Positions 20,101 to 35,003 are shown, numbered from the stretch's first letter. The stretch is 64,000 bases of DNA from a virus (IMGVR_UViG_3300034284_001491:20462-84461); one strand, 5' to 3'. Notes: a model not told the origin generated them from the letters alone. Numbers and translations are program-made.

Positions 20101-22071
20101 TTCTTTTATGATTGGTTAAGTGGACAACCAGATAGATTTGAATATGATTATAGAAAATATTCTATGATTCCATATCCAAGATATTGGATAAATACAGAAA
20201 AATATATTACATCAAAAGTAATTCAAGATTTAATTCCAGGACTCGGATGTGAAGAGGAAGGAGATGATAATGCACTTAATACTCTAACATATCAAGATAG
20301 ATTTCCAAGCGATCAATCATCACTATCTAGAAAAAGAAATGTAACTGGATTTAATTTAGAGGCTATTAGTGGTTTATTTTGTAATGGTGACGAAGTACTA
20401 TTTAGAATAGATGGTTGGTTTTATTTATTTTATTCAGGAGTAAAAGATTTTTATGTAGAATCTGAAATTAATTTAGCTCAAAGAGATCATGATGATTTAA
20501 TAGAAACAAGACATTATGATCATAAAGAATTCACTGATATAAATCAAATGTTTAATTCTGATATAATTAAAGAATTAAACTATTATAAATATGATCAATC
20601 ATTAAGTGTAGATAGATTTTATAATATCTACACCACTTTTTCTATAATTCAACCAAGATGGTATAATCCTATTGTTGCAGAATCATGTTATGTATATTCT
20701 CCAAAAAGAATTATATATTCTCTACCAATTAAAAAAGAAAATAGAATAGATTTTTGGAAATTTTATCTTGTTAATAATTATTATGAATTTAATTCTAAAA
20801 TAACATCTGTTAGTCCAATATCTAAAAGTGGTGCTCTTGTTCATTTTAAAGATATTAGTCCTGTAGTATTTCAAGGAGTAGATGAATTAAAAACAGATCT
20901 TGGAACTAAACTTACAGTTGGAGATGGTGGATTATTTAGTCAACCATTACAAAATATTGTAAATACAGATGCACCATATGAATATGGTTCATGTCAAGAT
21001 AGATATTCAATTATTAATACACCATTTGGAATATTTTGGATCAGTCAAGATCAAGGTAAAATATTTAACTATGCTGGAAAACTTGATGAAATTTCTAATA
21101 AAGGAATGAGATGGTGGTTTAATAAATATCTTAAATATTTTTTATTAGAAGATTTTCCAAATTTTGAAGAAACCCAAAATCCAGTAATAGGTGTTGGGTG
21201 TCAAGCAATTTATGATAATAAGAATCAAATCATATATTTTACAAAACGTGATTTTAAACTTTTAACATCGGGTGTTTTAAGATATATAGGTAATGATGAA
21301 TTTGAAACAATTGTAGGAAGATTACGAGTTAAACTAGGTGATCCGAGATTTTTTGAAGATGCTTCTTGGACAATATCTTATGATCCTAAAATGCAAATCT
21401 GGATATCATTTCATGATTGGCATCCTGAGTTAATGATTCCAGAAAGAAATACATTTACTACAATTAAAAATAAAGTATTCTATAAACACAATAATACATG
21501 TACAAGTTTCTGTAATTTTTATGGAGTAAATTATCCTTTTGAAATTGAAACAGCATTATCTACTGGGCAATCCGTGACTACAGCAAGAAATGTTGAGTAT
21601 ATGTTAGAATCATATAGATATACAAATAACTGTATAGATAATCATCACTTACTTGATCATAACTTTGATAATATGATTATTTATAATAGTGAGCAAATTT
21701 CAGGTGTACTTAATTTAGTACCACATCCTAAAAATGATCCTATTACAATGATATCATATCCTATAATAAATCCCAATAGTATTGATGTTTTATATAGTAA
21801 AGAAGAAAATAAATATAGAGTAAATCAGTTTTGGGATATTACTAGTGATAGAGGAGAATTTACTAGTAATACAAATATTTTATGGGAAACTGCAACTAAT
21901 GGATATGCTAAAGCAATTAGACCAGGATCAGTGAATTATGCTAAATCTCCATTAGAAAGAAAGAAATTTAGACATTATTCTACTAGAGTTATTCTAAGAA
22001 AAAATATCTCTAACAATATTAAGATGTTTTATAAATTGTTTAATCTTAAACAAGCACAGTCTTACCGATGA
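17137..22071 (+). CDS. Tail stabilization/muzzle protein (P22 gp10-like, crAss muzzle)
   Basis: 1644 aa, beta-propeller-like composition with LRDEIYSFFIRW, GGDNYIGRY and WTISYD...WISFHDW motifs; sits between the tubular and cargo genes. Confidence 0.75.
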   Translation: MASKDKNTGQNLNIESAVFNKGMMMDFDDLIVPEGVWIRARNAVNNSQNGNIGVIGNEPSNVECLTVNYDVIGLIYISDGTWVIFLTNDIASEIGIYREDGCSYTRLYKELSNTCLNFKRTNLITGISREKVDCTRQIYFADGLNPDRSFAIKQDYSGIVDDYYQETITNVQTGEDPDEDCEIVQYNFNQLDCDKIRLNPLMNPPCVKLKRATYSGSLLNGTYQVFIAYTIDGQRVTDYIGKSNPQSLYKHENANSSLEVIIESIDERFDEFELVVVSFYNGQTQAKKMGIYSTQVGSIFIDIISNELSNIPTGLLPLVSTIYEKSEAIYKNNNYALRVAPTSKFDFNYQPLANLIETEWFAAAYPEDYYYKGGNKATYLRDEIYSFFIRWVYADGQKSPSFHIPGRAKNTFDSQIIGPLQLAFLNDTPEEIDNQRWRYENTATRTSPSLPNPINYITGLGINTDDGGVIVAKGKMGYWESTEEYPNYKPDIWNSSAHNWTGVNTPSPEYDLCGQRIRHHKFPDTDIIPHFASENDTIAQLPLPNFNNANCNASYEVLPNTILGFTNYSNTKIILLGVNFNNIKPPVDNNGNLIPGIIGYEILRGNRLGNKTILAKGVVTNLREYNLPEYIDSNIQSQYKQKGLFLNYPFNDLRKDELLSTIKVDGGVNNSCRTNDYPLLGQDSSTLFSNKFIGFHSPETTFYNSFLDIDEIKITGELNGVANGRFVEVNKHPKHALPADIAFILSLFFGWLTSRNALGLTILGIGGGNTQYLTQAGSTQSVTTDNDLLSAPIAGAISKPIQRIYYTIMFSQSYLDAIISIMADRQYALQHIAHCYYSKYTPGIKKTRKIKNASYIGSNRQQVSEKYIINNIYRNRFLCIETENNFIEKPLLTDTSRYSVDKVLGINDISYEDPTNKTVSTTSSCLYASLKFKLRNIYGQLDQIRQLPISTCIHTINQNNRNAVNSTNYTIFGGDNYIGRYTEKNTFFFFYDWLSGQPDRFEYDYRKYSMIPYPRYWINTEKYITSKVIQDLIPGLGCEEEGDDNALNTLTYQDRFPSDQSSLSRKRNVTGFNLEAISGLFCNGDEVLFRIDGWFYLFYSGVKDFYVESEINLAQRDHDDLIETRHYDHKEFTDINQMFNSDIIKELNYYKYDQSLSVDRFYNIYTTFSIIQPRWYNPIVAESCYVYSPKRIIYSLPIKKENRIDFWKFYLVNNYYEFNSKITSVSPISKSGALVHFKDISPVVFQGVDELKTDLGTKLTVGDGGLFSQPLQNIVNTDAPYEYGSCQDRYSIINTPFGIFWISQDQGKIFNYAGKLDEISNKGMRWWFNKYLKYFLLEDFPNFEETQNPVIGVGCQAIYDNKNQIIYFTKRDFKLLTSGVLRYIGNDEFETIVGRLRVKLGDPRFFEDASWTISYDPKMQIWISFHDWHPELMIPERNTFTTIKNKVFYKHNNTCTSFCNFYGVNYPFEIETALSTGQSVTTARNVEYMLESYRYTNNCIDNHHLLDHNFDNMIIYNSEQISGVLNLVPHPKNDPITMISYPIINPNSIDVLYSKEENKYRVNQFWDITSDRGEFTSNTNILWETATNGYAKAIRPGSVNYAKSPLERKKFRHYSTRVILRKNISNNIKMFYKLFNLKQAQSYR

Positions 22072-25000
22072 AAAAATCATTTAAAAAAAATACAAGAGAA
22101 GGATTACCAAACGGACCTAATGAAATAAAAACAACACAATCTGGATTTATTATTTCAGAAAGAGGTCAATGGGATTTTCCAGGATTACCTACAATGATTC
22201 CTTCTAATAATATTACAATGAAGAATGTTCCATATCCTGTATTTGGATTTGATGATTTAGGATATAGTCAAATGATGTATCCTGGTATGGATTATAAATT
22301 TCCAGGAAATCAAGTGTATGAGTTACCTATAGCACAAGTTGGCAAGGAAAATAAAGTTCCTTCATATGAAGATTTATATAAAGAATATAATATTGTTCAA
22401 TCTCAAGTAAATGATTATTTAAGAAATAATAAAGGACGAGAAGAAGAAAGAAATTATAGACTTAGATTAAATGATACAGCTAATAAACTTATAGAACAAG
22501 GAATAGATGTAAGAGAAGAAGGATATATTCCAGATCATATAAAAAATAGTCCTGAATTTAGAGCTGATTGTATAAGTGGTACTTGTAGAATTTTAAATGA
22601 AATTGGAGAACCAACTAAATATTATAGCAACACTCTTTTGCAAGATGATGTAATTGCTGGAAAAGTTCCAGGAAGAACATTTGATTATAGTGTTAAAGGA
22701 ATTGTTCCTGGGGATATTTTACAATTTAAATCAGATGAAAAAAGTTATCCGTTTCATGCTTATTTAATCCAAGATATTTCTGAACCGGATGCAAAAGGTA
22801 ACAGAACAGTTAAAGTTGCTGGATCTTCAGGAAATGGACCATTGAGAAATGAAATATATATATTAACCCCAGATAATAAAATTACAGATACATGGGGTAA
22901 TCCAAGATACGTTCAAACTATAAGAAGAGAAAGATTTGATAAAAATCCAGTACCTAATGATCTTTTAAAAAGAAGAGATGAATTAAAATCTAATTTAGAA
23001 AAATACTATCCTAATGCATTTAAAAATTTTGATGTAGATACTGATGCATTTAAACCAACAGCTTTTATAAGAAATAACAATAATAAATTAAATCTAGGTA
23101 ATCCAGGATTCCCTTCAGAAACTATTAATTTAGATGAATCTAAATTAGATGAAATATTAACTCAGTTTTCTGATCCAGATTTTAAAAGTAATTTTATGAA
23201 GCAACAAAAAGTCAGTAATGATGAGTATGATGCTATTGTAAAAAATGTAATTGGTATATATGGTGCAGAATCCAAATTTGGAACAGGATATGGTAGAGAG
23301 CCTTTATGGCTACAAAAATTTTTAGCAGGTCCAAAAGGAATTCAATCAGTGGGACCTTTTCAGATTAATCCTAAAATGCTTAAAACAAAAAGATTTTCTA
23401 GAAATGATTTATTTGATCCTATTTTAGGTTCTGAAGCTGCTGCAATATTTCTTGCTGAAAATTTACCATTACTTAGAAATAGAGCTGGTTTAAAACCTGG
23501 AGATGATCACTATAGTGAAAATTTAAATAAAGATAACTATTTAGAATATATTCCATATTTAATGAATCAACAAGGTTTATTATTAGGAGATAATTATACA
23601 GAGGAAGAAAAACCAGGAAGAATAGCAAGATTTTTTGGAGCTGACCCTACACCTACACCAGAAAATAAATTAACGGGTGATTCAGAATATAATCAAGCAG
23701 TAAAAAGATATATTGAAAATCTTGGTGTACAAGCAATTCCTGCTAGTATGTCTAATCCTGTTACAATATCTGATTATCAAGATGGTGGTATATTTAATCC
23801 CAATACAGATGAGTTTATTGGATTTGTTGATGAGTTGCCTAAAGCTCAAGATGGTGAAGAAACCAAAGCTAAACCCATAACTAATATTGATCTAGCACCT
23901 ATTGAAATAACTGCTAAAAGAACAATTTGGGATAAATTAAAAGGATTTGCAAGACAATTCCCAGGAGTTGATTTTGATGAATATCAAAGATCTAAAGCAT
24001 TACAAGAAAAATATCAAAATGCTTGGTTTCCTGAATCACCTAAAAATTTACAATTTATAGAACAAAGAGCACTAGAAGATGGTAAAAGTGCTTATAGACC
24101 TAGTACACTACAATTTAATCCTATTACTGGTGAAATAATGCCTGCTAGTGGAAGAATAGATCCTGATGATACTTTTGATTTAGCTTTATTACCTGCTAGT
24201 CTACCTTTTAAAGCTACAAGTAGATTAGGTAAAATAGGATTAGGTGCTATTGAAATGGTAAATCCAATTAGTGGATTTCGTAATTTATTTCCAACTTATA
24301 AAAATATTTATAGAATAGAACCTACATCATGGTCTAAAGATCCTACTGATGCTTTAAGTGGAAGATGGTTTGGTGAATTAGAGGAAATGCCTTTTTATGT
24401 AAAAAATTTAAAAGATAAAGATGCTGGTTATAGAATAATGAGAAAAAAAGTAAGTGAAAAGAAGTGGAAAAAAATATCAGGTGAAAATATGCCAGATGAA
24501 GCAAAAAAAATGAGTATTGGTCCAGGAAAATATGGTACTTATGATAATGCTTCTAAATCTGGTGAATTATCTCAAGCACAAGCAAGAAGATTAACTCTTG
24601 GTGCACATATACCTTCTGATGTAGAACATGCTTCTTTAAATAAAAATCTTATAAATTTAAATGAAGGAATTCTTCCAGAAGAAGTAGTTAGCAAAATTAG
24701 ATTAGGAAATCCAAGAAAATTTTTATCTTCTTCTGGAAAAGTAGAATATCCTGCTGGAGAATTAGGAAAAGAAGGTGCAACAGATCATGTATTTCACTTA
24801 TTATATCAGCAGTTTAAAAATCAAGGATATGAAAAACCAATATTAGGAATTCCTAGAAAATACTTTCCATTTAAAAATGGAGGTTTATATAATTCATATA
24901 TGTATCAGGTAGGTGGTCCTAAAGATGATGATGATAAAAAACGTGTGTTAGTAACTCCTAATGGATTAGTGGCCCCTACATTAAATACATTTGAAGTAAT

Positions 25001-28000
25001 AGAAGAAAGAACACCATTACAAAAAATATATGATGAAGAATTTCAAAAGAGACTAAATGCCGATAAAGCATTTCAAGAAAAATGGTATCCTGGTCAAGAA
25101 TATGATCCCACTAATATAGAAAAAAGAGCTGTAATGGCAGCTAATGATAAAGTTTCTAAATATATAATAAATCAAAGAAATAAAGAAGGTAAGACAAGAA
25201 ATAGTTATGCTAATAGACAAGAGTTTTTAAAAGCATTAACTGATGAAGAAAAAAAATATATAGGGCAATCTAATTTAGCAGGTTATTTAGAACCCGATGC
25301 AGGTTCTAGATTTAGAGCAGCTTGGCATAATATAAATCATTTAGGGCAAGGATTTTTAAACACCGATCCTGATTTAACACAAGAAGAAGCTAATAACATT
25401 AGTAGATGGAATGCATTTGCACCACTTGGTGTACCATTAAATGCATTAAGAGCTACTCTAACAGGAGATAATATTGGAGAAGCTTTTAAAGGAGAAACTT
25501 CTAGACCTTGGATGTCAGCAGATGAGCAACCATTAGCAAGTGGTATGGAATCAACTGTTCCATATTTAAATACAGTAGGAGATGTTGGAATGGATCCTCT
25601 TAATTTTTCAGGTATGGGTATTGGTCAAGGATTAAGTAAAGTATTAAATCCATTTAATAAATTCAAAAGATTAAATCCAAATATAACTTCTTCTGTAGAT
25701 AATGTTGGTAAAGGTTTAACACAAGCATCTAAACGAGCTTGGCAAATGGAAGAACTTCCAGGATTACATTTAAAATCTACAATGGAAGGAGAAGCTATTT
25801 CTAAAATAGTAGAACCTAAAACAGGTTTAATAAATACAGAACAAGCATTAGCTATTATAGGTAAAGAATCAGGAGGTGCTGATAAAGTTGCTCTTATACG
25901 AAAAGGACTAGGAGATAAGATTCCTAAAAAGATGGACTTTAATGAGTTCAGAAAAATAACTCAAGAACAACTTATTCCTTTAGAAAGACAATTTAGTACA
26001 CAAAGCAGTAATTATGGTATAGATAGAATTGGATATCCTGGTGCTACAGATGTAGAAGCAAATATTGATGGTACTTTTAATATTTTTGGAAATCCTACAA
26101 AATTTAAAACAAGAGAAGAGGCTGAAGAATTTTTAAAATTACAATTACCATTAGAAAATCAAACTCTTATATTAGGAAACAAATCTAAATTTGGCAGAGG
26201 ATCTCATGCTCATGGTAATCCAGAAGAAACTCTTGGTCATGTTCACTTTTTAAGGGATGCTGAAACTCCTGATGTATTAACAGTAACACAAATACAATCT
26301 GATGCTTTTCAAGGTACATATAGAATAATGCCAAAAGATTCTAAAAATTTAACTGCTTTAGAAAAACAACAAAAATCTTTAGCAAGAATGGAAGAATTAC
26401 AAGAGCGTAACAAGGCTATTCTTAATAAAATGAAAACTGAAGGTGTTGATGAAGCAGGATTACCAGTTCTAGATTATCAAATAAGACAATTTGAAGATAT
26501 AGTAAAAGCACAAGAAAACACTAACATATTTAAAAAAGCGGATATTGAAAACTTTACTCAAAAACAACTACTTGATAAAAACCATCAAGAAAGATACTTA
26601 CAAGAACTTGTAGATTATGCAGGAAAAAGAGGTGATGTAAATAAGGTTAGAGTGCCTACAAGTGAAACTGCTGCTAAAGTTCAAGGGTACAATCCTATTC
26701 AAGAATCAACACTAGGTCCTGTAACAAAAAAACAACTTGATGAATCATCTACATTTGAAGAATTTTTAACACTAAAGAAGGAACAAATAGGTAATTATAA
26801 ATTAAATAATGAAGAATTAAACACATTTAAAAAAATATACAATGATTATAAAGCTGGTAAGTTAGGAAAAGTGTATGATCCAGCTCATACAACTATTCTT
26901 AAAAAATATTCAGAGCAACCTAAAACTATTAAAAAATTATTTGGTAAAGAACCTACAATAGTAACAGATAGTAAAGGTAATACATGGTATGAATTTGATA
27001 TACCTGAAAAGTTTAAAAAAGGTAAAGGAGAAATTAAAGCTTTTGGACTAGCACCATATATAGGATTAGGAGGAGCAGGAGCATTAGGAGCAGGAGCATT
27101 ACAACAAAATAACCAATCTAAAAAACAATCTAAAGGTGGAAATATATATGCTAATGGAGGATTAGTGAAAGCACAAATAGGTATACAAACGATGAGACCA
27201 GATGCAACATCTGTTAATATGAATTTACCTCAAATAGATCTATCAAAAAAATTAAAATTAACTGAAGAAAATAAAAAACGTATACAAGAATTATTTCCAG
27301 ATAAAAAACAAGCTTTGGAAGAATTAGAATCATTGTATTATAATGCATATGAGGATTTTGGAAGTAGATTTAATAAATTAAATACTTGGCCTGAATTATC
27401 TGGTAAAACAATTAATCTAACAACAGATAGATATCGTGGTGCTAATATTCCTATTGAATATCTTAACATGTTAACTGATTCTGCTAAAAGATTTAAATTA
27501 GATCCTTATTTATTATATGCAATTGCTGGAAGAGAATCAACATTCGGACAAGGTAAGAATAATGAAGGTAGAAATGTTTCTCCAATAAATCTTGTTTCAG
27601 GTTGGAATATAGATGAACCATATAGACCGTATTCATATGAAAGATTCTTAGCCGATAAGAATAGTCCCAATATAATAAAATCAAAAAGTAGTAGTGGACT
27701 TTTCTTTCATACTCCTGAAAAAGAAAATGAATTAAATGAACTTAATAATTATATTATTGAAAATAATTTATTTGATGAATACAAAAATAAAATATCTAAA
27801 TCTCCTAAACTTCAATACACTAATCCATTTGATTTAGTTTCAGAATTTATTGTTAATAAAGGAATTGAAAAATATAATCCAGGAGATCCAGATTATAAAA
27901 ATAAAATCAATAAAGAAATTGAATTATTAAGAAGTGATCCTGAATTTACAAAATACTATAATAGTATGAATAAAAAATTTGGTGGTAGTCTAGAAAAATA

Positions 28001-28091
28001 CCATAATCCAAATAAGTATGGAGGATCTATATATAAAAATGGAGGAACGTATAATCCTAATACTGATGAGATAATAGGTTTTATAGACTGA
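22068..28091 (+). CDS. Multidomain virion cargo protein: NlpC/P60-like peptidase, two lysozyme/SLT-like domains and other polyvalent domains
   Basis: DCISG..PGDILQF..HAYL; GAESKFG..GPFQIN; LLYAIAGRESTFG..KYNPGDPDY; HVHF..QIQSD. Modules are separated by xxGG motifs. Confidence 0.7.
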   Translation: MKKSFKKNTREGLPNGPNEIKTTQSGFIISERGQWDFPGLPTMIPSNNITMKNVPYPVFGFDDLGYSQMMYPGMDYKFPGNQVYELPIAQVGKENKVPSYEDLYKEYNIVQSQVNDYLRNNKGREEERNYRLRLNDTANKLIEQGIDVREEGYIPDHIKNSPEFRADCISGTCRILNEIGEPTKYYSNTLLQDDVIAGKVPGRTFDYSVKGIVPGDILQFKSDEKSYPFHAYLIQDISEPDAKGNRTVKVAGSSGNGPLRNEIYILTPDNKITDTWGNPRYVQTIRRERFDKNPVPNDLLKRRDELKSNLEKYYPNAFKNFDVDTDAFKPTAFIRNNNNKLNLGNPGFPSETINLDESKLDEILTQFSDPDFKSNFMKQQKVSNDEYDAIVKNVIGIYGAESKFGTGYGREPLWLQKFLAGPKGIQSVGPFQINPKMLKTKRFSRNDLFDPILGSEAAAIFLAENLPLLRNRAGLKPGDDHYSENLNKDNYLEYIPYLMNQQGLLLGDNYTEEEKPGRIARFFGADPTPTPENKLTGDSEYNQAVKRYIENLGVQAIPASMSNPVTISDYQDGGIFNPNTDEFIGFVDELPKAQDGEETKAKPITNIDLAPIEITAKRTIWDKLKGFARQFPGVDFDEYQRSKALQEKYQNAWFPESPKNLQFIEQRALEDGKSAYRPSTLQFNPITGEIMPASGRIDPDDTFDLALLPASLPFKATSRLGKIGLGAIEMVNPISGFRNLFPTYKNIYRIEPTSWSKDPTDALSGRWFGELEEMPFYVKNLKDKDAGYRIMRKKVSEKKWKKISGENMPDEAKKMSIGPGKYGTYDNASKSGELSQAQARRLTLGAHIPSDVEHASLNKNLINLNEGILPEEVVSKIRLGNPRKFLSSSGKVEYPAGELGKEGATDHVFHLLYQQFKNQGYEKPILGIPRKYFPFKNGGLYNSYMYQVGGPKDDDDKKRVLVTPNGLVAPTLNTFEVIEERTPLQKIYDEEFQKRLNADKAFQEKWYPGQEYDPTNIEKRAVMAANDKVSKYIINQRNKEGKTRNSYANRQEFLKALTDEEKKYIGQSNLAGYLEPDAGSRFRAAWHNINHLGQGFLNTDPDLTQEEANNISRWNAFAPLGVPLNALRATLTGDNIGEAFKGETSRPWMSADEQPLASGMESTVPYLNTVGDVGMDPLNFSGMGIGQGLSKVLNPFNKFKRLNPNITSSVDNVGKGLTQASKRAWQMEELPGLHLKSTMEGEAISKIVEPKTGLINTEQALAIIGKESGGADKVALIRKGLGDKIPKKMDFNEFRKITQEQLIPLERQFSTQSSNYGIDRIGYPGATDVEANIDGTFNIFGNPTKFKTREEAEEFLKLQLPLENQTLILGNKSKFGRGSHAHGNPEETLGHVHFLRDAETPDVLTVTQIQSDAFQGTYRIMPKDSKNLTALEKQQKSLARMEELQERNKAILNKMKTEGVDEAGLPVLDYQIRQFEDIVKAQENTNIFKKADIENFTQKQLLDKNHQERYLQELVDYAGKRGDVNKVRVPTSETAAKVQGYNPIQESTLGPVTKKQLDESSTFEEFLTLKKEQIGNYKLNNEELNTFKKIYNDYKAGKLGKVYDPAHTTILKKYSEQPKTIKKLFGKEPTIVTDSKGNTWYEFDIPEKFKKGKGEIKAFGLAPYIGLGGAGALGAGALQQNNQSKKQSKGGNIYANGGLVKAQIGIQTMRPDATSVNMNLPQIDLSKKLKLTEENKKRIQELFPDKKQALEELESLYYNAYEDFGSRFNKLNTWPELSGKTINLTTDRYRGANIPIEYLNMLTDSAKRFKLDPYLLYAIAGRESTFGQGKNNEGRNVSPINLVSGWNIDEPYRPYSYERFLADKNSPNIIKSKSSSGLFFHTPEKENELNELNNYIIENNLFDEYKNKISKSPKLQYTNPFDLVSEFIVNKGIEKYNPGDPDYKNKINKEIELLRSDPEFTKYYNSMNKKFGGSLEKYHNPNKYGGSIYKNGGTYNPNTDEIIGFID

Positions 28092-28129
28092 GAAAATTTT
28101 TGTAAATTGTACAATTATACTATATAGTA

Positions 28130-31100
28130 ATGAGAAAAGCATTAGTTAAAAGAGGTGATAAAATTGTTGAGGTAACAATTGATGAAAACACCTATAAAAC
28201 AGGGGGTTCTAATCTTATTAAAAGAAAAGATGGATCATACTCCCAAAGAGGACTATGGGATAATATCAGAGCTAATAAAGGTTCTGGAAGGAAACCCACT
28301 AAACAAATGCTTGATCAAGCAAAAAAAATTACTAGAAATAAAAAACAAGAAGGTGGTGAAGAAATATATGGTAATTATATGTTACCTGAATTTGAAGTAG
28401 AAGAAAATACAGGAATGTATAATCCAAATATTGTTGGACCTTCTGCTCCAAGGTATATACCTTCTGAAACAGGATTTATACCAAATCCAAATTATACTAC
28501 AGGAAGTGGATCAACTGAGTCTATTCCACTTGAATTATTTGCTGCACCTATTGCTAGAGGTTTAAGTTCAGCTATTGGTATGATTCCTCAAAGTTGGGTG
28601 ACTACAGCAGGTACAGCAGGAAGTTTACTAGGATTAGAATCTTGCTCTACAGGTAAATGTAGAGGATTAAAAGCTCATCCTAACTATAAAAAATCTTGGG
28701 GAAAATCTAAAAAAAGAAAAAGACAAGAAGGTGGTGAAGAAAATCAATTTGAAGAATTAGTTGATAAAATAGAAGATGCTTTAGAACAAGGTGCAAATCC
28801 ACAAGAATTATTTCAACAACTAATTAAAATGGGTGTTGATGAAAATTCTGCAAAGGAAATTATACAAACAGCTATTCAAGAGATTCAGGGTGAAGGAGAA
28901 GAAAATGAAGATGAAGAATCTAATAGAATGATGGCTTATGGTGGATCAGCTGATCCATGTCCACCTAATTATTATTGGGATGAAGATGAAGGAAAGTGTG
29001 TTCCTATGTCACAAAGTCTTCCTAGTAGAGATGACTTATATAATAATCCTGAAATGCAAAAGGATTTAGATAGATTAAATTATAAAAGAAATATTCAACA
29101 ATATAAAATAGATTATAACAATAATAAAAATAAATTTTATGAAGATAATTATAAAGGACCAAAAATAAAGGATGAAAAGGGTAGAGTACTACCTGATTAT
29201 AATTCTCCTGAATATAAAGATTTTAAAATATTATATGATGAATATTTAAAAACTTTACCTAATCCTGATAGAAGTTCATTTAAACTTCCAGTAGATTATC
29301 AACAAAAGAATTTTTATCCTAAAGAAGGTGAATGGGATGAAGATTCTAAAAAAGAATTTAATAGATTTTTTAATCCTGAACCTACTCAACAAGAAAAAGA
29401 AGAAGGAATTTTAAAAGAATATTTAAAAAGTAAACCTCAAGTAAATCCGGATTTTTATTATAATGATATTCCAGCTGATGATCCAGTACAACAATATAAA
29501 ATGAATCAGGATCAATTACGTGATTATAGATATGAAGAGGAATGGTGTCCATGTTATAAAATGAGGGAAGAACTAATTGCAGGGAGACCAGTTATGAAAA
29601 AAATCTGTGTACCTTGTGAACAAGCAAAGATGGGTGGGAATCTTGATAAATTTATGCAAAAAGGTGGAGACAAAAAACAATTATCTTCATCAGTAAAAAC
29701 TGCAAGTAACTCAGATGTACTAAGTCAAACTTATAATTATCAAGATCAAAATAAAAGTAATACCACAAATGTAAGTAGAATTATAAATTCTTATGATGAT
29801 GGTAGTCCAAATACAACTAGTTATTCTTATTTAAGTCCAGAAGAAAATTTCTTTTACAATACATCAACAGGAGTAAATTTTAATAACGCTGAACCAATTA
29901 CTCCAGAACAAATAGATTTCTACAAAAGAAAAATTGCTGAAGGATTAAATATACCTTATGATTTTAAAGAAGGTGGATCTTATAGAGTTTATAAAACTAG
30001 TGAACGAAAAGGTAAAACTCATAAGGTAGTAGGTCCAGGTGGTGTCACTAAATATTTTGGAGATCCAAAACTGGGAGAAAGAAGTAAATCTAAATATGGT
30101 AAAAAAGCTTTTTATGCTAGACATAAAAAGAATCTAGATAATAATCCGTTCTTTAGAGCATATGCTAGAGCAACATGGGCAGAAGGTGGTGAACCTTCAT
30201 ACATGAATGAACCAGAATATAAAACAAATTCATTCATTTCTAAAGTAAAAGAAATGGGTCAAATAGAAAATGATAAGAATTTGTATAATAACATTATGGA
30301 ACAATCTCAGCAGATGCTAATGCAAATGGGTGGTATCCAAAAAATTGGATACAATGGTATTAGCAATAGTAATCTTGCAAGTATGCAAGCTATGGAGGGT
30401 GAGTATAATCAGAATTCTAATATATTTAAAGCATTTACAGATATTAATAAAGCTGTTATAGATTCTAAAGGAGATAAGATTAAGGCAGCAATGGAAATGG
30501 CTGGTGCAGCGGGTGCAGCATATCTAGGATTACCTCCTGGAGTTGGGAAGGAAGTAGGTAAGATTGCTGGTGAGGCTACAGTTGGTGCAATTAGTAATAC
30601 AAATAAAACTACACAAAATGTAATAAAAAATCTTGAATCACCAACAGCATATAGTGATTTTAAACAAGGAATAAATAATCAGAGTACAGCACAAAATCCT
30701 ACACAACAACAGCAGTCTGCAAGTAGTGGTTCAAATTCATTATCTGGACTATCTGGAATTTTAGGAGGAGCTGGTGGTGGTTCAGGTGGTGGATCTGGAG
30801 ATGCTTTAGGATCAATGTTAAAAGGTGTAATGTCTAATCCTGAAATGTTAACAAGTTTAATTGGAGCTAGAAGAGGGGGTACACTACGTAAATTTGTAAC
30901 CGCAGGAGAAAATCAAATAAATTTACCAACAAATAATTGGTGGGATATTGGTAATACAACATCTTTTTCAAGTAATCCTCAAAATATTACTGCACCAAAT
31001 CAACCTCAACAATATACAATTGCAGATCAAAGTTTAAATACACCAGCTTTATCTGCAACTCCAGATAATCTTGGAGTATGGAGTGATGATCTAAAAACAT

Positions 31101-33316
31101 ATACTCCACCTTCATTTGGTCCTAAAAATCAAATGAATCAACCTGGAATTACGACAGACATAACTAATCCTAAACCACCAGTTCAACAAGATCAAAATAA
31201 AAATAATAAATCAACAGCTGTAATTGGTCCTGCTATAGCTGGTTTTGTTCAATCTTTTGGAGATAAAAAAAGAGCAAAAGAACAAGGTACTAATATAGGA
31301 CAAGCAACGTCAAATTCTGATAGCGTATTTGGATATAATAGAATAGAAGATAGAGGAGATTTTGAAATAAATACTGGTAGACGAAAACCTAATCAATATA
31401 TAATGGGATCACTTCAAGGTGTACCAGCATTGTCATCTGCTAAATATGGTGGTATACAAAAACCTGGAGTATATATGTCTTATCCTACTGCCACTCCAGA
31501 ATCTGTAGTATATGGTAAACCAGATAAGAAAATGTCTAATACATTAGGTCCAGTAGATAGAGATAAAGCAAATCTAGAAGCTGAAGGTGGTGAAACAGTT
31601 ATGACACCTGCAGGTGATGATGGTATTCCTAAATTCTTTAAGATTGGCGGTCAAAGACATAGCCAAGGAGGAACACCTTTATATCTTCCAGAAAATTCAT
31701 TCATATTCTCAGATACTAGATCAATGTTATTAGGAAAGAATATGCTTGAAGAATTTGGTATTACAGGTAAAAAGAAAAAGACACCTGCAGAAGTTGCTAA
31801 AATTCTTGGTAAAGGATATGAAAAATATGTAAAGATTATTCAAGATCCTAATTCAGATTCTATTGAAAGAAGAACAGCAGAGATGATGATACAAACTCAA
31901 ATAAATAATTTGGGTAAATTAGCATTAGCTCAAGAATCTAAAAAAGGTTTTCCACAAGGTATCCCAATGATATCTGTTCCATATATGGCATCAATAGGTG
32001 TAAGTGCAGAACAACTGTTGCCACAAATACCACAAGGTATGCCACAAGGTAATATGATGCCTCCTGAAATGATGCAACAAATGATGCAGATGCAACAGAT
32101 GCCTATGGCTAAATATGGTTTGCAGAAATATCAAGTTGCTGGAGAAACTAATGTGTTTGGAGACCCTAATGCACCATTTCCTACATCTAGTCCTTCAACT
32201 CCAGAAGATAGAAATATAGCACAATATATTTTAGGAAATTTACAAAGTTATTTTACTTCTAAACCAGAAGAAGAATCTATTGAAGCTAATATTAAACCAG
32301 TTGAAATTGTTTCACCAGTAAAAGGATTTGAAACAATAGAAGATGTAGATGCTTTTATTTTAAAAGGTGATGAATTTGGACAAGATTTTAATGCTTTATA
32401 TAATGCTTATTCACAATCACTTCAAGCAATTGATAAATTAAGATATGGACTACTTAATGGTACTGTTCCATTAGAAGAATATGAAAAAGAAAGAGATGCA
32501 ATTAATAGTAGAATTGATGAAATAAAAACTGAATTAAAAAATAGTGGAAATCAAATTCCTTGGTATAAAAGTTCTGGAATTATCCATAATTCAACTGTAG
32601 ATATACTAGAAAATATGCAAGGAATTATGAATGAAGAAAAAAATAAATTAAAAGTTAGAGCTGCTGATTTAAGAAAGTTTAGAACTCTTCAAAATAATGT
32701 ATCTTTTCTTGAAACAGAAAAACAAAAGATTCTTAAACTTTTAAATTCAGATATAGATGATCTTGAAAAAGTACGCCTTAGAAGAAGATTAACAAATCTT
32801 AATGATGCTTTAAATTATGAAACTGATAGAACAAATCAATTTGGAGAAAGAGCATTTAAGATACCTAAACCGACATTTGAGGATATAATAGAAGAAACAG
32901 AAACTTCAGCTAATCTCCCTGTAATAAATAGTCGCTTTAAAACTCCGCGAGTATATGGGGATGAGCATACTGCTCAATGGTTTGGTCCATTAGCTGCAGC
33001 AACGGGTAAATTAATTAAAAAATATACATATGATGATTATATAAAAGATTATGAAAGTAATTCTATAGGTACTACAGTTAAACCATCATATGAATCACAA
33101 CAAGGTACATTAAATAATATACTAAGTACAGCAACACCAGATACAGCAGCTGTACCTGTACAAAATACTGTTCCAACACAAACAGCACCAGCAACTACTC
33201 CAAGTCAACCTAGTAAACAAACTAAATCAAATAGTTCTAATTCAAACAATAATAAATCATTTATATCTAAAATTAAAAAAGTAGAAGATAAAGATTTAGA
33301 TTTATTTAAAAAATAA
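28130..33316 (+). CDS. Modular low-complexity virion cargo protein
   Basis: 1728 aa of short modules separated by xxGG, with Gly/Ala hydrophobic stretches and an 'EAEGGE...GQRHSQGG...FIFSD' domain typical of phage internal proteins. Confidence 0.65.
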   Translation: MRKALVKRGDKIVEVTIDENTYKTGGSNLIKRKDGSYSQRGLWDNIRANKGSGRKPTKQMLDQAKKITRNKKQEGGEEIYGNYMLPEFEVEENTGMYNPNIVGPSAPRYIPSETGFIPNPNYTTGSGSTESIPLELFAAPIARGLSSAIGMIPQSWVTTAGTAGSLLGLESCSTGKCRGLKAHPNYKKSWGKSKKRKRQEGGEENQFEELVDKIEDALEQGANPQELFQQLIKMGVDENSAKEIIQTAIQEIQGEGEENEDEESNRMMAYGGSADPCPPNYYWDEDEGKCVPMSQSLPSRDDLYNNPEMQKDLDRLNYKRNIQQYKIDYNNNKNKFYEDNYKGPKIKDEKGRVLPDYNSPEYKDFKILYDEYLKTLPNPDRSSFKLPVDYQQKNFYPKEGEWDEDSKKEFNRFFNPEPTQQEKEEGILKEYLKSKPQVNPDFYYNDIPADDPVQQYKMNQDQLRDYRYEEEWCPCYKMREELIAGRPVMKKICVPCEQAKMGGNLDKFMQKGGDKKQLSSSVKTASNSDVLSQTYNYQDQNKSNTTNVSRIINSYDDGSPNTTSYSYLSPEENFFYNTSTGVNFNNAEPITPEQIDFYKRKIAEGLNIPYDFKEGGSYRVYKTSERKGKTHKVVGPGGVTKYFGDPKLGERSKSKYGKKAFYARHKKNLDNNPFFRAYARATWAEGGEPSYMNEPEYKTNSFISKVKEMGQIENDKNLYNNIMEQSQQMLMQMGGIQKIGYNGISNSNLASMQAMEGEYNQNSNIFKAFTDINKAVIDSKGDKIKAAMEMAGAAGAAYLGLPPGVGKEVGKIAGEATVGAISNTNKTTQNVIKNLESPTAYSDFKQGINNQSTAQNPTQQQQSASSGSNSLSGLSGILGGAGGGSGGGSGDALGSMLKGVMSNPEMLTSLIGARRGGTLRKFVTAGENQINLPTNNWWDIGNTTSFSSNPQNITAPNQPQQYTIADQSLNTPALSATPDNLGVWSDDLKTYTPPSFGPKNQMNQPGITTDITNPKPPVQQDQNKNNKSTAVIGPAIAGFVQSFGDKKRAKEQGTNIGQATSNSDSVFGYNRIEDRGDFEINTGRRKPNQYIMGSLQGVPALSSAKYGGIQKPGVYMSYPTATPESVVYGKPDKKMSNTLGPVDRDKANLEAEGGETVMTPAGDDGIPKFFKIGGQRHSQGGTPLYLPENSFIFSDTRSMLLGKNMLEEFGITGKKKKTPAEVAKILGKGYEKYVKIIQDPNSDSIERRTAEMMIQTQINNLGKLALAQESKKGFPQGIPMISVPYMASIGVSAEQLLPQIPQGMPQGNMMPPEMMQQMMQMQQMPMAKYGLQKYQVAGETNVFGDPNAPFPTSSPSTPEDRNIAQYILGNLQSYFTSKPEEESIEANIKPVEIVSPVKGFETIEDVDAFILKGDEFGQDFNALYNAYSQSLQAIDKLRYGLLNGTVPLEEYEKERDAINSRIDEIKTELKNSGNQIPWYKSSGIIHNSTVDILENMQGIMNEEKNKLKVRAADLRKFRTLQNNVSFLETEKQKILKLLNSDIDDLEKVRLRRRLTNLNDALNYETDRTNQFGERAFKIPKPTFEDIIEETETSANLPVINSRFKTPRVYGDEHTAQWFGPLAAATGKLIKKYTYDDYIKDYESNSIGTTVKPSYESQQGTLNNILSTATPDTAAVPVQNTVPTQTAPATTPSQPSKQTKSNSSNSNNNKSFISKIKKVEDKDLDLFKK

Positions 33317-33326
33317 TAATTTTAAT

Positions 33327-35003
33327 ATGTATACTCCTTATAATATATTTGATTATAATTTACCTAAATATAATCCAGGTGGTCAAAGTAATAATCCTGA
33401 TAAACCAGATCCAGGTACCTATAAAATAGGTGATATTATTGATATCAGTGGTGAAAAAAAAGTTGTAACTGGTTGGGATCCAGTAGCAGGTAAATACACT
33501 ACAGAAAAATGGAATCCTTTAAAAGGAGATATTGGCGACTATACAAAAGATTATGAAGCTTTAGAAAAAGCATTAAATGATCCGGATGTAAAAAAAGCAT
33601 TATGGGAAGAATACAAAAAAGATAAAACAACTTATAAAGTTACAAGTACAGGTAGTAAATATATTAGAGGTATAAAAGATGCAGATGATCTTGTAAAAAA
33701 ATATCTCCAAGCTGAAAAAGCCATAATGGCTATTAATGCTAATTATTCTGCTGATGAAATTAAAAAATTAAATTTAGATAACAATTCGGCAAATAGAAAA
33801 AAATTATTTGAAGAAGTAGGTATTAATTTTAATCCGGGAGATATTGCTATTTTTCAAAAAGCTTATTATGATTTAGCAGATATATATAATAGTACAAGTA
33901 CACCAGATGCTATAAAACAAAAATTAGGAGACTTTGATTGGGAAGCAAAAGGAGATATAGACACTGATTCACCTGAATATAAAACATCAGGAAAAACAGG
34001 AGTTACTAAAGGATATGTTAGTCAAGTAGATGATGCTTTTGGAGATAATACTGTTTTTCAATTTAATAGATTAAAACAACCTACAATAACACAATCTACA
34101 ATAACACAAAAACCACAACAAACCTCTCCACCAATTACTCCTGGGAAAATGGGTCCACCAGTACCTAGGGCAAAACCAGAATTTTGGACTCAAGATAAAA
34201 ATCTTGTAACAAATGCATTAATAGATTATTTTCGTACTAAAAAAATTAATCCTTGGGCTCCACCTATTGATTTACAAGAACCTCAATATACATTACTAGA
34301 TCCTACTTGGCAATTACAAAATAATGCTGCATTAATGAATCAGCAATTACAAGGACTTGGGGCATTTGGTAATTCACAATCTTATCTTGCTAATGCTACA
34401 GCTTTATCTGGTAAAGCATCTGAACAATCACAAGGTATTTTAGCAGAATATGATGCTAGAAATGCAATGATTCAAAATCAAGGTGAACAAGCTAAAACAG
34501 CAATAAGGAATCAAGAAAATCTTGCAAATGCTGAAAGATTAACAAATTTATATGATAAAAATGCTATTGCTGAACAACAATATTTAAATACTGAAATAGC
34601 AAGAAGAAAAAATATTGTTGATGCTACTAATAATGCTTGGACAAATAGAGGACTTACCCAATCTCAAAATATAATGAGTTATCCTTTTCAAGTGGATCCA
34701 GTAACAGGATATACTTATTATGATCCTAGACTTGCCACTGATATGCAACCTTCAGAAACAGATTTTGAAACTAGACAAAAAAGATTAGATGATTTATTAA
34801 CAAGTACTAAATATCAAAATCAAGATATAGAAACTATATACAAAATTTTGTATCCTGATGAAAATATAGGAAATCCTTATTATAGATCGTCACAAAGAGG
34901 AAGACAGAGATATCAACAAAATAATTATGATCCAAGATATGATCAATATTTTATGTATCCTGGAGCTTCTGGTGCTAATCCATATGGTTATCCATTTGGC
35001 TAA
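33327..35003 (+). CDS. Internal virion/ejection protein
   Basis: 558 aa with a Q/N/A-rich coiled-coil C-terminal half; lies in the cargo cluster. Confidence 0.55.
   Translation: MYTPYNIFDYNLPKYNPGGQSNNPDKPDPGTYKIGDIIDISGEKKVVTGWDPVAGKYTTEKWNPLKGDIGDYTKDYEALEKALNDPDVKKALWEEYKKDKTTYKVTSTGSKYIRGIKDADDLVKKYLQAEKAIMAINANYSADEIKKLNLDNNSANRKKLFEEVGINFNPGDIAIFQKAYYDLADIYNSTSTPDAIKQKLGDFDWEAKGDIDTDSPEYKTSGKTGVTKGYVSQVDDAFGDNTVFQFNRLKQPTITQSTITQKPQQTSPPITPGKMGPPVPRAKPEFWTQDKNLVTNALIDYFRTKKINPWAPPIDLQEPQYTLLDPTWQLQNNAALMNQQLQGLGAFGNSQSYLANATALSGKASEQSQGILAEYDARNAMIQNQGEQAKTAIRNQENLANAERLTNLYDKNAIAEQQYLNTEIARRKNIVDATNNAWTNRGLTQSQNIMSYPFQVDPVTGYTYYDPRLATDMQPSETDFETRQKRLDDLLTSTKYQNQDIETIYKILYPDENIGNPYYRSSQRGRQRYQQNNYDPRYDQYFMYPGASGANPYGYPFG

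What the first reader, a model, noticed from the sequence alone, without database searches (positions are those of the whole stretch)
22068..33385. Recurrent [YFM]-x-x-GG motif punctuates cargo proteins into modules: candidate polyprotein processing or capsid-loading signal
Seen: the 2007-aa protein has YQDGG, FKNGG, YQVGG, QSKGG, YANGG, KKFGG, NKYGG, YKNGG plus variants IAQVG, KAQDG, KAQIG. The 1728-aa protein has YKTGG, KQEGG, RQEGG, MAYGG, AKMGG, MQKGG, FKEGG, WAEGG, MQMGG, ARRGG, AKYGG and YQVAG. The 558-aa protein starts with LPKYNPGG. The motifs fall, often in close pairs or triples, at boundaries between unrelated domains rather than inside the recognisable enzymes. Established: double-Gly is the cleavage determinant of C39 and ubiquitin-like proteases, and phage head proteases process internal proteins at short motifs. 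Inference: these ORFs are polyproteins of independently exchangeable effectors released by a GG-specific protease, or the motif is a repeated docking tag for the capsid, portal or scaffold.
Basis: partly seen in the sequence, partly recalled or inferred. Interest (0 to 1): 0.82.

Follow-up and report, generated by a model that had tools for sequence, protein, structure and literature searches.

The report
Gly-Gly seam motif in phage cargo
Two giant proteins that this uncultured crAss-like phage probably carries in its particle are strings of swappable small modules, each ending in a short conserved peptide that finishes with two glycines; the pattern is real and apparently undescribed, but nothing yet shows that the joints are cut.

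Summary
The motif strings are all present. GG itself is not enriched in the 2007-aa protein (10 vs 12.7 expected). The context [YFM]xxGG is: 5 vs 1.34 (p=0.01) and 6 vs 1.24 (p=0.0015), against 1 vs 0.77 in the muzzle protein. In 79 related IMG/VR loci the excess is confined to the 2-3 genes after the muzzle gene (251/68, 355/75, 84/28 observed/shuffled; muzzle 54/48).

Homology breakpoints lie near the motif 2.5x more often than expected. One 70-aa module sits at varied positions in 139 of 150 listed cluster representatives, and 137 of 137 full-length copies end W-x-x-G-G. AlphaFold confidence drops below 50 at that GG.

No C39, Ulp1, adenain, OTU (control silent), caspase, HK97-type, ClpP or S49 protease turned up in five near-complete relatives. 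In crAss001 the published resolved range of cargo protein C1 spans such a motif.

Best reading (0.45): uncut seam and hinge with docking tags. Cleavage stays open (0.3).

This scan already reported the same grammar on at least seven other genomes. My paper searches found no description.

The parts
17137..22071 (+). Muzzle protein gene (1644 aa). It anchors the synteny. Its own GG contexts are not of the motif type.
   Evidence: PF25731 crAss_MUZ, E=1.6e-31. [YFM]xxGG 1 vs 0.77 expected.
22068..28091 (+). P0001, a 2007-aa mosaic cargo-type protein ('protein 0'). It has 8 motif-type GG sites and 3 KAQxG-type variants.
   Evidence: No Pfam, PHROG, PDB or phage-database hit.
22125..22343 (+). Conserved N-terminal beta domain of P0001 (about residues 20-92), ending in ..E-L-P-I-A-Q-V-G, the oldest copy of the seam.
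   Evidence: 343 related stretches in IMG/VR. Alignment A1. AlphaFold pLDDT 84-98 over 21-90, below 50 at 92-96.
22344..23771 (+). About 480-aa insertion (residues 93-568) between the N-domain seam and YQDGG. It is absent from the closest relative, L005/L009. It holds Cys/His and Glu-Ser motifs that suggest cell-wall hydrolases, unconfirmed.
   Evidence: BLAST: P0001 1-92 and 571-600 are contiguous in L005. L022 shares 27-603. Pfam gives only DUF1175 at E=0.1.
23775..23855 (+). Composite joint: YQDGG, then an aromatic-N-P-N-T-D-E-hydrophobic tail, then L-P-K-A-Q-D-G.
   Evidence: pLDDT below 50 at 565-574 and 587-618, with a weak hairpin at 574-586. The same joint directly follows the N-domain in L009 and L058.
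24870..24917 (+). Tandem pair FKNGG / YQVGG (P0001 935-950).
27126..27182 (+). Tandem QSKGG / YANGG plus L-V-K-A-Q-I-G. This is the left seam of the C-terminal module.
   Evidence: The HSP with L058 starts at residue 1700.
27165..27986 (+). Module 1700-1973 (weak SLT-like hint). It is shared at 52% identity with L006/L058, where it sits mid-protein, and is bounded by seams in both phages.
   Evidence: SLT_2 E=0.14 only.
27972..28091 (+). C-terminal triple KKFGG / NKYGG / YKNGG plus a terminal tail that repeats the internal tail at 577-592.
   Evidence: A GG lies in the last 22 aa of protein 0 in 35 of 60 relatives, against 9 of 60 for a mid-protein window.
28130..33316 (+). P0002, a 1728-aa mosaic cargo-type protein with 11 motif-type GG sites.
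28208..28357 (+). Module A (residues 27-76), a basic mini-domain bounded by YKTGG and KQEGG. In other phages it lies inside protein 0.
   Evidence: 8 subjects; 142 of 150 representatives hit; of 34 full-length copies, 29 have GG within 5 residues after the module.
28946..29638 (+). Cys-containing module (residues 273-503), bounded by MAYGG and AKMGG/MQKGG. It is 72% identical to an N-terminal segment of L006/L058 protein +1.
29978..30190 (+). Module B (residues 617-687), a basic alpha/beta mini-domain bounded by FKEGG and WAEGG.
   Evidence: 1189 representatives match the 720-aa query that holds it, and for most of the 150 listed rows the best stretch is this module, at varied positions; 137 of 137 full-length copies end W-x-x-G-G; pLDDT 86-95 over 616-685 (one block at 69), below 50 from 686.
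31529..32029 (+). Most widely shared cargo domain (residues 1134-1300), with E-A-E-G-G-E and G-G-x-R-H-S-x-G-G signatures. These GGs lie inside a domain and are not seams.
   Evidence: up to 33 HSPs.. It is a separate gene in L002/L014.
33327..35003 (+). P0003 (558 aa). Only its N-terminus carries a tag (L-P-K-Y-N-P-G-G, residues 12-19). The rest is conserved and free of the motif.

Best explanation
Anatomy. The motif is a protein-level 'seam' grammar of beads-on-a-string cargo proteins. Each small, independently folding module carries its own C-terminal end-piece: hydrophobic (M/Y/F/W), then K/Q/A, then x-G-G, usually followed by E/S and then a hydrophobic residue or Pro.

In the one module modelled with confidence, the hydrophobic residue is the invariant Trp of the last helix. 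The two glycines are where order stops. That is a helix stop plus a flexible exit.

Proposed function (inferred). The seams insulate folding units and act as hinges. This lets a 1,700-2,000-residue protein be stored and fed module by module through the portal and tail channel.

Companion tags sit at joints and at the ends of separate genes. They are L-P-K-A-Q-x-G, often after a basic K-V-R-I-K strand, and a G-G-aromatic-acidic tail. They most likely act as docking handles for virion parts, as short segments of C1 do in crAss001.

Evolution. Modules are exchanged between phages, and only junctions at seams survive selection. There is no fixed DNA site.

Shown: the motif, its restriction to the post-muzzle genes, its position at module ends, and the disorder boundary. 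Inferred: hinge function, docking function, and the absence of cutting.
For: Restriction to the cargo genes.
- [YFWM]xxGG observed vs shuffled across 79 of 80 loci: protein 0 251/68, +1 355/75, +2 84/28, muzzle 54/48, -2 17/28.
- 150 cluster representatives: 1237 vs 176.

Module ends.
- 137 of 137 full-length module-B copies end W-x-x-G-G, and the upstream flank is [YF]-[GK]-x-G-G. W88 is invariant and G91/G92 at least 90% conserved.
- AlphaFold pLDDT is 86-95 over 616-685 (one 10-residue block at 69), below 50 from G686, with the terminal helix ending at W683.
- The N-domain is confident to residue 90 and below 50 at 92-96.
- 237 of 1582 breakpoints lie near the motif, against 94 expected. 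Control dipeptides give ratios of 0.83-1.48, and PP 1.82.

Not cut in the solved relative.
- The crAss001 paper gives C1 residues 425-552 and 214-245 as resolved. By my numbering GG lies at 427-428, 434-435 and 447-448 inside the first piece, and at 209-210 and 263-265 flanking the second.

No protease.
- 0 of 5 relatives for each of 8 protease families. The OTU control was silent, so that one is uninformative.

Other points.
- The residues after the last GG are themselves conserved at C-termini, so they are likely kept in the mature protein.
- Gly codons in the motif vary (GGTGGT 285, GGTGGA 128, GGAGGT 65 and others).
Against: - The specificity lies mostly on the N-terminal side of GG (information 0.45, 0.30 and 0.28 bits at -3, -2, -1, against 0.23 and 0.18 at +1, +2). 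Every module 'ends' in the motif as ubiquitin does in polyubiquitin, which is what a protease site looks like.
- A plain hinge does not need a conserved hydrophobic residue and K/Q.
- Family-wide, position -5 is rich in Pro/Asp/Gly/Asn (56% vs 39% background). The helix-cap picture seen in module B is therefore not general.
- Short N-terminal leaders ending in the motif are kept on separate genes: 33 of 47 for +1 and 22 of 44 for +2, against 1 of 37 for the muzzle. A cap of a preceding module would not need that.
- Tandem copies 7-9 residues apart are not explained by capping.
- Only 27% of breakpoints are near GG.
- crAss001 is a distant relative with few motif copies. I read residue ranges in the text, not coordinates.
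- A protease outside known families, or a host protease, would have escaped my searches.
- No docking partner was tested.
Confidence: 0.45

Rival explanations
1. Polyprotein processing. The seams are cleavage sites, cut after G-G, for a virion-associated or host protease. Cutting would release small basic proteins (modules A and B) and enzyme modules inside the head or after ejection. Short N-terminal leaders and C-terminal tails would be removed, much as T4 internal proteins lose their targeting peptide.
For: - The logo is weighted to the non-prime side, with invariant GG at module C-termini.
- Leaders ending in the motif occur at N-termini of separate genes.
- Fused and split gene versions have boundaries at the joints.
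- A preprint on the crAss-like phage phi14:2 RNA polymerase says that fused virion proteins of some crAss-like phages are 'likely cleaved' and names a zincin-like domain (passages).
- Iyer et al. 2017 propose autoproteolytic processing of polyvalent proteins (passages).
- HExxH motifs occur in the two giant downstream proteins.
- Pro is depleted at +1 (x0.5).
Against: - No GG-type or prohead protease in five near-complete relatives.
- No protease family in the scanned ORFs of the own contig, which is 70% complete.
- The two HExxH motifs have no family support.
- The stated resolved range of crAss001 C1 runs through a motif, and the crAss001 virion gel has 150, 270 and >300 kDa bands.
- The tails after the last GG are conserved.
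- Arrays with a 5-9-residue period would yield useless tiny peptides.
Confidence: 0.3
2. Multivalent sticker grammar. Aromatic/Met-x-x-Gly-Gly units in Q/M/P/G-rich disordered stretches make the cargo proteins self-associate into a condensate or gel. That condensate would co-package the other cargo, or plug the tail barrel. The modules would be clients embedded in it.
For: - Protein +1 of relatives has twice the expected GG (1038 vs 542) and many tandem units in Q/M-rich sequence.
- Spacing peaks at 7 and 9 residues.
- Motif sites fall in low-pLDDT segments.
Against: - Motif positions are fixed relative to module ends (137 of 137 for module B). Sticker models predict conserved density, not conserved position.
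- P0001 has only 10 GG in 2007 residues.
- No test of self-association was possible.
Confidence: 0.1
3. Chance or composition artefact: the motif is a by-product of Gly, Lys, Gln and aromatic content.
For: GG itself is at or below expectation in P0001. Within the window alone the p-values are modest (0.01 and 0.0015). The motif class was defined after looking.
Against: - There is a 3.7-7-fold excess over shuffles in 79 loci and in 150 representatives, and none in neighbouring structural proteins of the same genomes.
- The position-specific logo is absent from control GG contexts.
- GG is invariant at module ends.
Confidence: 0.02

Closest known systems
Cargo protein C1 (gp45) of Bacteroides phage crAss001 (Bayfield et al. 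2023, PMC10172136; PDB 7QOG and others)
   Same: - It is encoded right after the muzzle gene and is carried in the virion.
- Short segments dock on portal, tail-ring and muzzle proteins (passages).
- It carries A-Y-G-G, A-F-G-G, A-F-G-G-W-L and F-A-Y-G-G, which flank or begin the two resolved pieces.
   Different: - There is no detectable sequence similarity to P0001, P0002 or P0003 (best BLAST E=0.39).
- gp45 is 842 aa with a weak motif excess (3 vs 1.34 and 4 vs 1.37).
- It lacks the 70-aa N-domain and modules A and B.
- The paper's text has 0 occurrences of words beginning cleav, proteoly or protease.
Polyvalent proteins of phages and conjugative elements (Iyer, Burroughs, Anand, de Souza, Aravind 2017, PMC5512222)
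   Same: They are very large virion-delivered proteins built from many unrelated, shuffled domains, including cell-wall enzymes. The authors propose processing into units (passages).
   Different: - That paper defines them by catalogued domains and a zincin-like MPTase. MPTase-PolyVal was not found in this contig, and no Pfam polyvalent domain was found.
- The words glycine, linker and crAss have 0 occurrences in its main text.
- A conserved junction peptide is not part of that concept.
Capsid-targeting sequence of T4 internal proteins, and double-glycine leaders cut by C39 peptidases (both recalled, not read here)
   Same: A short conserved peptide is attached to hypervariable cargo. In those systems it serves targeting and is then cut off.
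   Different: - Here the peptide is internal and repeated many times as well as terminal.
- No C39 peptidase was found.
- The T4-type prohead protease family was not searched.
Gly-Gly-X processing of adenovirus and African swine fever virus core polyproteins by clan CE proteases (recalled)
   Same: Virion-internal proteins carry hydrophobic-x-G-G sites.
   Different: No Peptidase_C5 or C48 in five relatives. In the motif here the hydrophobic residue sits one position further from GG. No evidence of cutting.

Membership tests
Crassvirales virion cargo proteins (C1/C2 class) | Encoded directly downstream of the muzzle gene in the virion block | tested here: met
   Muzzle PF25731 at 17137-22071. 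P0001 starts at 22068. Ring protein 2 PF25702 lies upstream.
Crassvirales virion cargo proteins (C1/C2 class) | Sequence homology to crAss001 gp45 or gp46 | tested here: not met
   BLASTP best E=0.39. Only short shared motifs.
Crassvirales virion cargo proteins (C1/C2 class) | Physically present inside the virion | not testable with these tools
   The phage is uncultured. The cultured relative Cellulophaga phage phi4:1 gp040 is annotated as a virion protein from MS/MS.
Polyvalent proteins (Iyer et al. 2017) | Large protein of many unrelated shuffled domains in a phage late or virion gene block | tested here: met
   Mosaic homology.
Polyvalent proteins (Iyer et al. 2017) | Zincin-like MPTase or other catalogued polyvalent domains | tested here: not met
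   PF18818 found 0 matches in the own contig. Pfam scans of P0001 and P0002, whole and in pieces, gave nothing significant. ART-PolyVal is only a 0.77 Atlas lead.
Double-glycine leader / C39 peptidase system | C39 peptidase domain encoded by the element | tested here: not met
   PF03412: 0 of 5 near-complete relatives, with the control ringing in 7 of 14 genomes. None in the scanned ORFs of the own contig.
Double-glycine leader / C39 peptidase system | N-terminal 15-30-aa leader ending in GG | tested here: inconclusive
   P0002 has GG at 25-26 and P0003 at 18-19. The motif lies in the first 50 aa in 33 of 47 (+1) and 22 of 44 (+2) relatives. Most sites are internal, and the leader consensus (recalled) fits only in part.
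Clan CE Gly-Gly-X virion polyprotein processing (adenain, Ulp1-like) | Clan CE protease gene | tested here: not met
   PF02902 0 of 5. PF00770 0 of 5, with the control only under the cut-off.
Prohead-protease maturation (HK97 S78, ClpP, S49) | Prohead protease gene in the structural block | tested here: not met
   0 of 5 relatives for each family. No hit in the own structural ORFs. The T4-type family was not searched.
Any protease-cleaved polyprotein | Mature products shorter than the ORF | not testable with these tools
   Needs virion proteomics. Indirect evidence comes from crAss001 only.

The most novel reading that the evidence does not exclude
The seams are true processing sites. An unrecognised protease would cut after G-G and turn two or three giant genes into dozens of small injected proteins, some basic (modules A and B) and some putative wall-degrading enzymes. 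The protease could be phage-encoded outside known families, one of the HExxH domains of the giant neighbours, or a host enzyme. The terminal tags would serve first as loading signals. This would be a polyubiquitin-like or adenovirus-like maturation pathway in a very abundant group of tailed phages. It would also change how the crAss001 cargo density is read.
Probability: 0.27. Interest if true: 0.85.

Novelty: new variant of a known kind. Interest (0 to 1): 0.62.

Why it matters
crAss-like phages are among the most abundant viruses known. How they load, store and inject megadaltons of protein is an open question.

A conserved junction grammar gives a sequence handle on three things:
- which proteins are cargo;
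- where their functional units begin and end;
- which residues to mutate to test hinge, docking or cutting.

The handle is shared by hundreds of uncultured genomes and by cultured Cellulophaga, Flavobacterium and Leptolyngbya phages.

It also defines widely shuffled mini-modules of unknown function. The 720-residue N-terminal part of P0002 that holds them matches 1189 cluster representatives, and for most of the 150 listed the best match is the 70-aa module B. These are candidates for early host-takeover or anti-defence factors.

Tried and rejected
Searches that gave nothing.
- Pfam and PHROGs on P0001-P0003, whole and in pieces: nothing significant.
- tblastn of P0001 and P0002 against 50,697 phage records: no match.
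- PDB sequence search: nothing for P0001, and one chance-level row for P0002.
- Foldseek (pdb) and VIA-wide on the 660-residue model: no E<=0.001. The best Z was 7.3, on a helical hairpin at 92-154. The cell-wall-enzyme reading of residues 150-560 therefore stays unconfirmed.
- Module B model: PDB best E=0.62 and best VIA Z=3.4. BFVD best E=0.026 (probability 0.98), to an unnamed 84-aa viral protein.
- ESM Atlas on two P0001 parts: scores 0.79-0.84, leads only.

Ideas rejected.
- DNA-level recombination site: the codons vary and the site is only 15 nt and degenerate.
- Matched acidic-tail/basic-head pairs at every gene boundary: only partly seen. Basic heads occur in 33 of 52 protein 0 and 23 of 43 protein +2. 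Acidic tails occur in only 6 of 59 protein 0 and 15 of 45 protein +1.
- Stand-alone module B genes: five proteins of 68-126 aa were found. They may be fragments of short contigs, and I could not look up their context.
- HExxH motifs in the 3616-aa and 2515-aa proteins as a zincin protease: no family support.

Limits of the data.
- The A2 alignment used for the first fold has a few misplaced fragment rows.
- The count leaves out proteins under 300 aa, and 1 of 80 loci that had no ORF at the match.
- drops near-identical pairs (>95% identity over >80% of the query). It also drops ends within 40 aa of a terminus in either partner.

Papers.
- PMC10172136, 10.1101/2020.03.07.982082, PMC6235969 and PMC5512222 were read as 'find' passages only.
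- Supplements, figures and extended-data images were not seen. These include the gp45 peptide map, the gel band assignments and Extended Data Table 3, all of which could bear on whether C1 is cut.
- 'Not in print' rests alone.

Full report
WHAT THE WINDOW IS

It is the virion block of an uncultured crAss-like phage. The record is 84,461 bases, CheckV completeness is 70%, and the window covers bases 20462-84461. G+C is about 29%.

A major-head-protein family hit lies at 1679-3295. Tail ring protein 2 lies at 15245-15919. The crassvirus muzzle protein lies at 17137-22071 (PF25731, E=1.6e-31).

The finding covers the next three genes: P0001 (2007 aa), P0002 (1728 aa) and the start of P0003 (558 aa). 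In crAss001 the genes after the muzzle gene encode cargo proteins C1 and C2 and the virion RNA-polymerase proteins (passages of PMC10172136; annotation).

The GG dipeptide alone is not enriched in P0001 (10 vs 12.7 from composition). It is mildly enriched in P0002 (20 vs 12.2), with five of those from one G/S run.

The context is what departs from chance. With 2000 shuffles, [YFM]xxGG gives:
- P0001: 5 vs 1.34 (p=0.010);
- P0002: 6 vs 1.24 (p=0.0015);
- muzzle: 1 vs 0.77;
- P0003: 1 vs 0.21, not significant.

The window alone would be a modest case. The relatives settle it.

RELATIVES

The first about 90 residues of P0001 hold a conserved domain. It is found in 343 IMG/VR stretches, of which 80 loci were fetched.

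I sorted proteins of at least 300 aa by gene order around that domain. This worked in 79 of 80 loci; one had no ORF at the match. [YFWM]xxGG observed versus shuffled was:

| Position | Proteins | Observed | Shuffled |
|---|---|---|---|
| -2 | 44 | 17 | 27.8 |
| -1 (muzzle position) | 45 | 54 | 48.4 |
| 0 | 77 | 251 | 68.2 |
| +1 | 55 | 355 | 74.8 |
| +2 | 51 | 84 | 28.0 |
| +3 | 35 | 21 | 17.4 |

These loci are related, so the counts are not independent events. The contrast within the same genomes is still clear.

A logo from 1229 unique GG contexts in proteins 0 to +2 gives M (16%, 5.1x), Y and F at -3, and K, Q, A at -2. The signal after GG is weaker. 499 control contexts show none of this. 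After GG, E and S (2x) and W (4.8x) are favoured at +1. At +2, hydrophobic residues or Pro are favoured, and D and E are nearly excluded.

A phmmer scan of P0002 residues 1-720 against 1.84 billion cluster representatives found 1189 hits at E<=0.001. The 150 best carry 1237 [YFWM]xxGG against 176 expected.

DOES THE MOTIF SIT AT MODULE BORDERS?

In the window, mostly yes.

P0001:
- Residues 1-92 and 571-600 are contiguous in the closest relative. Residues 93-570 are therefore an insertion between the I-A-Q-V-G seam and YQDGG.
- The 1700-1979 module recurs mid-protein in another phage, with seams on both sides in both.

P0002:
- Module A (27-76), an acidic helical piece (199-253), a Cys module (273-514) and module B (612/616-688) each match other phages at other positions or in other genes.
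- They start or end at GG, except the end at 253.

Breakpoints with no motif also exist: 649, 741, 880 and 1147 in P0001, and 1027, 1072 and about 1300 in P0002.

Family-wide I ran an all-against-all BLAST of 162 cargo proteins. It gave 1582 clustered breakpoints that were internal in both partners.
- 421 lie within 6 residues of GG (226 expected, 1.86x).
- 237 lie near [YFWM]xxGG (93.6 expected, 2.53x).
- Sixteen control dipeptides give 0.83-1.48x, and PP 1.82x.

The association is real but partial.

Module B is the sharpest case.
- 139 of the 150 listed representatives hold it, at varied positions in proteins of 191-2409 aa.
- All 137 full-length copies end W-x-x-G-G, and the upstream flank is [YF]-[GK]-x-G-G.
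- With a 43-row alignment, AlphaFold gives pLDDT 86-95 for P0002 616-685 (one 10-residue block at 69) and below 50 from G686.
- The last helix ends at the invariant Trp.

In the 660-residue model of P0001 the N-domain is confident (84-98) to residue 90. Confidence falls below 50 at 92-96. YQDGG (565-574) and L-P-K-A-Q-D-G (587-618) lie in low-confidence stretches.

BEYOND THE FIVE-RESIDUE MOTIF

There are companion elements.
- L-P-K-A-Q-x-G or K-Y-Q-x-x-G-Q, often after a basic K-V-R-I-K strand.
- A tail after GG. In this clade it is aromatic-N-P-N-T-D-E-hydrophobic, once internal and once at the C-terminus of P0001. In other clades it is W-L-D/N-K-Y.

They concentrate at gene ends:
- a GG lies in the last 22 residues of protein 0 in 35 of 60 unique sequences, against 9 of 60 for a mid-protein window;
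- a motif lies in the first 50 residues of 33 of 47 (+1) and 22 of 44 (+2) proteins, against 1 of 37 muzzle proteins.

The same joints are internal in some phages and split between two genes in others.

Cultured phages share the grammar:
- Cellulophaga phage phi4:1 gp040, annotated as a virion protein from MS/MS;
- Leptolyngbya phage Lbo-JY46, in the three genes after its muzzle homologue;
- more weakly, Flavobacterium phage Fpv1 gp31.

crAss001 C1 (gp45) has A-Y-G-G 207-210, A-F-G-G 330-333, A-F-G-G-W-L 425-430 and F-A-Y-G-G 559-563.

CUT OR NOT CUT?

For cutting:
- The logo is weighted to the N-terminal side, and each module ends in the motif.
- Short leaders ending in the motif persist on separate genes.
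- Pro is depleted at +1.
- A preprint on the crAss-like phage phi14:2 RNA polymerase states that fused virion proteins of some crAss-like phages are 'likely cleaved' and points to a zincin-like domain.
- Iyer et al. propose the same for polyvalent proteins.

Against cutting:
- Eight protease families were searched in five relatives that are 96-100% complete, with no hit. These were C39, C48, S78, ClpP, S49, OTU, C5 and C14. The OTU control was silent, so that one says nothing. The C5 control rang only below the cut-off.
- No protease family appeared in the 38 ORFs of the own contig that I scanned.
- MPTase-PolyVal is absent from the own contig.
- The two HExxH motifs in the giant neighbours have no family support.
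- The crAss001 paper gives residues 425-552 of C1 as one resolved portal-bound domain. By my numbering that range begins with A-F-G-G and contains two more GG.
- The crAss001 virion gel shows bands of about 150, 270 and >300 kDa, next to predicted cargo masses of 154.5, 262.5 and 276.9 kDa. I could not see the band assignments.
- The tails after the last GG are themselves conserved.
- Arrays with a 7-9-residue spacing would give tiny peptides.

None of this is decisive for this clade.

MECHANISM I COMMIT TO (0.45)

It is an uncut seam.
- Each module carries its own end-piece, whose hydrophobic residue belongs to the fold. The glycines stop the fold and give a flexible joint.
- The terminal tags act as docking handles, as short C1 segments do on portal, ring and muzzle proteins in crAss001.
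- Shuffling is tolerated only at seams. The motif is not a DNA site, because its codons vary.

Against a simple helix-cap picture, position -5 is rich in Pro/Asp/Gly/Asn family-wide (56% vs 39%). The general motif therefore behaves as a short linear peptide of about ten residues, which implies that something recognises it.

Cutting stays at 0.3, a sticker or condensate role at 0.1, and chance at 0.02.

COMPARISON WITH WHAT IS KNOWN, AND NOVELTY

By position these are crassvirus cargo-class proteins. By sequence they are not homologues of gp45 or gp46. They work like polyvalent proteins but lack the catalogued domains.

I found no paper that describes the junction peptide. In the passages I read, the crAss001 paper has no word beginning cleav, proteoly or protease. 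Iyer et al. have no occurrence of glycine, linker or crAss.

The same grammar was already reported by this scan on at least seven other genomes, with the same open question. I reached it independently before that look-up. The look-up gave me the Iyer lead and two claims to test:
- matched charge tags: only partly seen;
- a caspase-fold module: not found in five relatives.

Noticed in passing
window 31529-32029 (P0002 residues 1134-1300): This is the most widely shared cargo domain (up to 33 HSPs among relatives). It carries E-A-E-G-G-E-T and G-G-x-R-H-S-x-G-G signatures. A similar G-x-x-H-E-x-G-G occurs in Cellulophaga phi4:1 gp040, Flavobacterium Fpv1 gp31 and the third gene after the muzzle of Leptolyngbya phage Lbo-JY46. 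It is a separate gene in L002/L014. Function unknown.
   Followed up: partly
window 45739-45753 and 57237-57251: HExxH motifs at residue 626 of the 3616-aa protein and residue 841 of the 2515-aa protein. They are possible zincin-like sites, of the kind proposed for crAss-like gp65 orthologues. They have no Pfam support here.
   Followed up: partly
window 61449-61930 (2515-aa protein, residues 2245-2404): A local cluster of Y-D-L-G-G, F-G-Y-G-G and F-Q-F-G-G near the C-terminus. [YFM]xxGG is 3 vs 0.64 expected (p=0.02).
   Followed up: no
window 33327-33395 and L089 3988-4060: The N-terminus of P0003 (..N-I-F-D..P-G-G-Q-S) resembles the N-terminus of crAss001 C1 gp45 (..N-I-F-D-T-G-G-Q-S). The proteins show no other detectable similarity.
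   Followed up: partly
window 22125-22343: The 70-aa N-domain of P0001 is a confident six-strand beta domain. It occurs in 343 IMG/VR stretches. Foldseek gives only weak SH3-like, chromo-like and CAP-Gly-like rows (E 0.06-0.3). It could be the anchor near the muzzle, or a peptide-binding unit.
   Followed up: partly
window 29978-30190 and 28208-28357: Modules B and A are very widespread basic mini-domains. 1189 cluster representatives match P0002 1-720, and the two often sit next to each other. They have no Pfam family and no clear PDB fold (best VIA Z 3.4). The best viral-library row is an unnamed 84-aa protein (E=0.026).
   Followed up: partly
window 35063-37762: The N-terminus of the 899-aa protein (M-A-T-Y-x-P..) is conserved in the gene that follows the motif-rich genes in many relatives. 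It carries no seam motif, so it marks the downstream edge of the system.
   Followed up: no
L091 10203-11075 (Flavobacterium phage Fpv1 gp21): This gene is annotated 'peptidase' and lies in the structural block of a cultured muzzle-bearing phage. I did not examine which family it belongs to, or whether relatives of the window have it.
   Followed up: no
window 22068-22071: The muzzle gene stop and the P0001 start overlap (ATGA), which suggests translational coupling.
   Followed up: no
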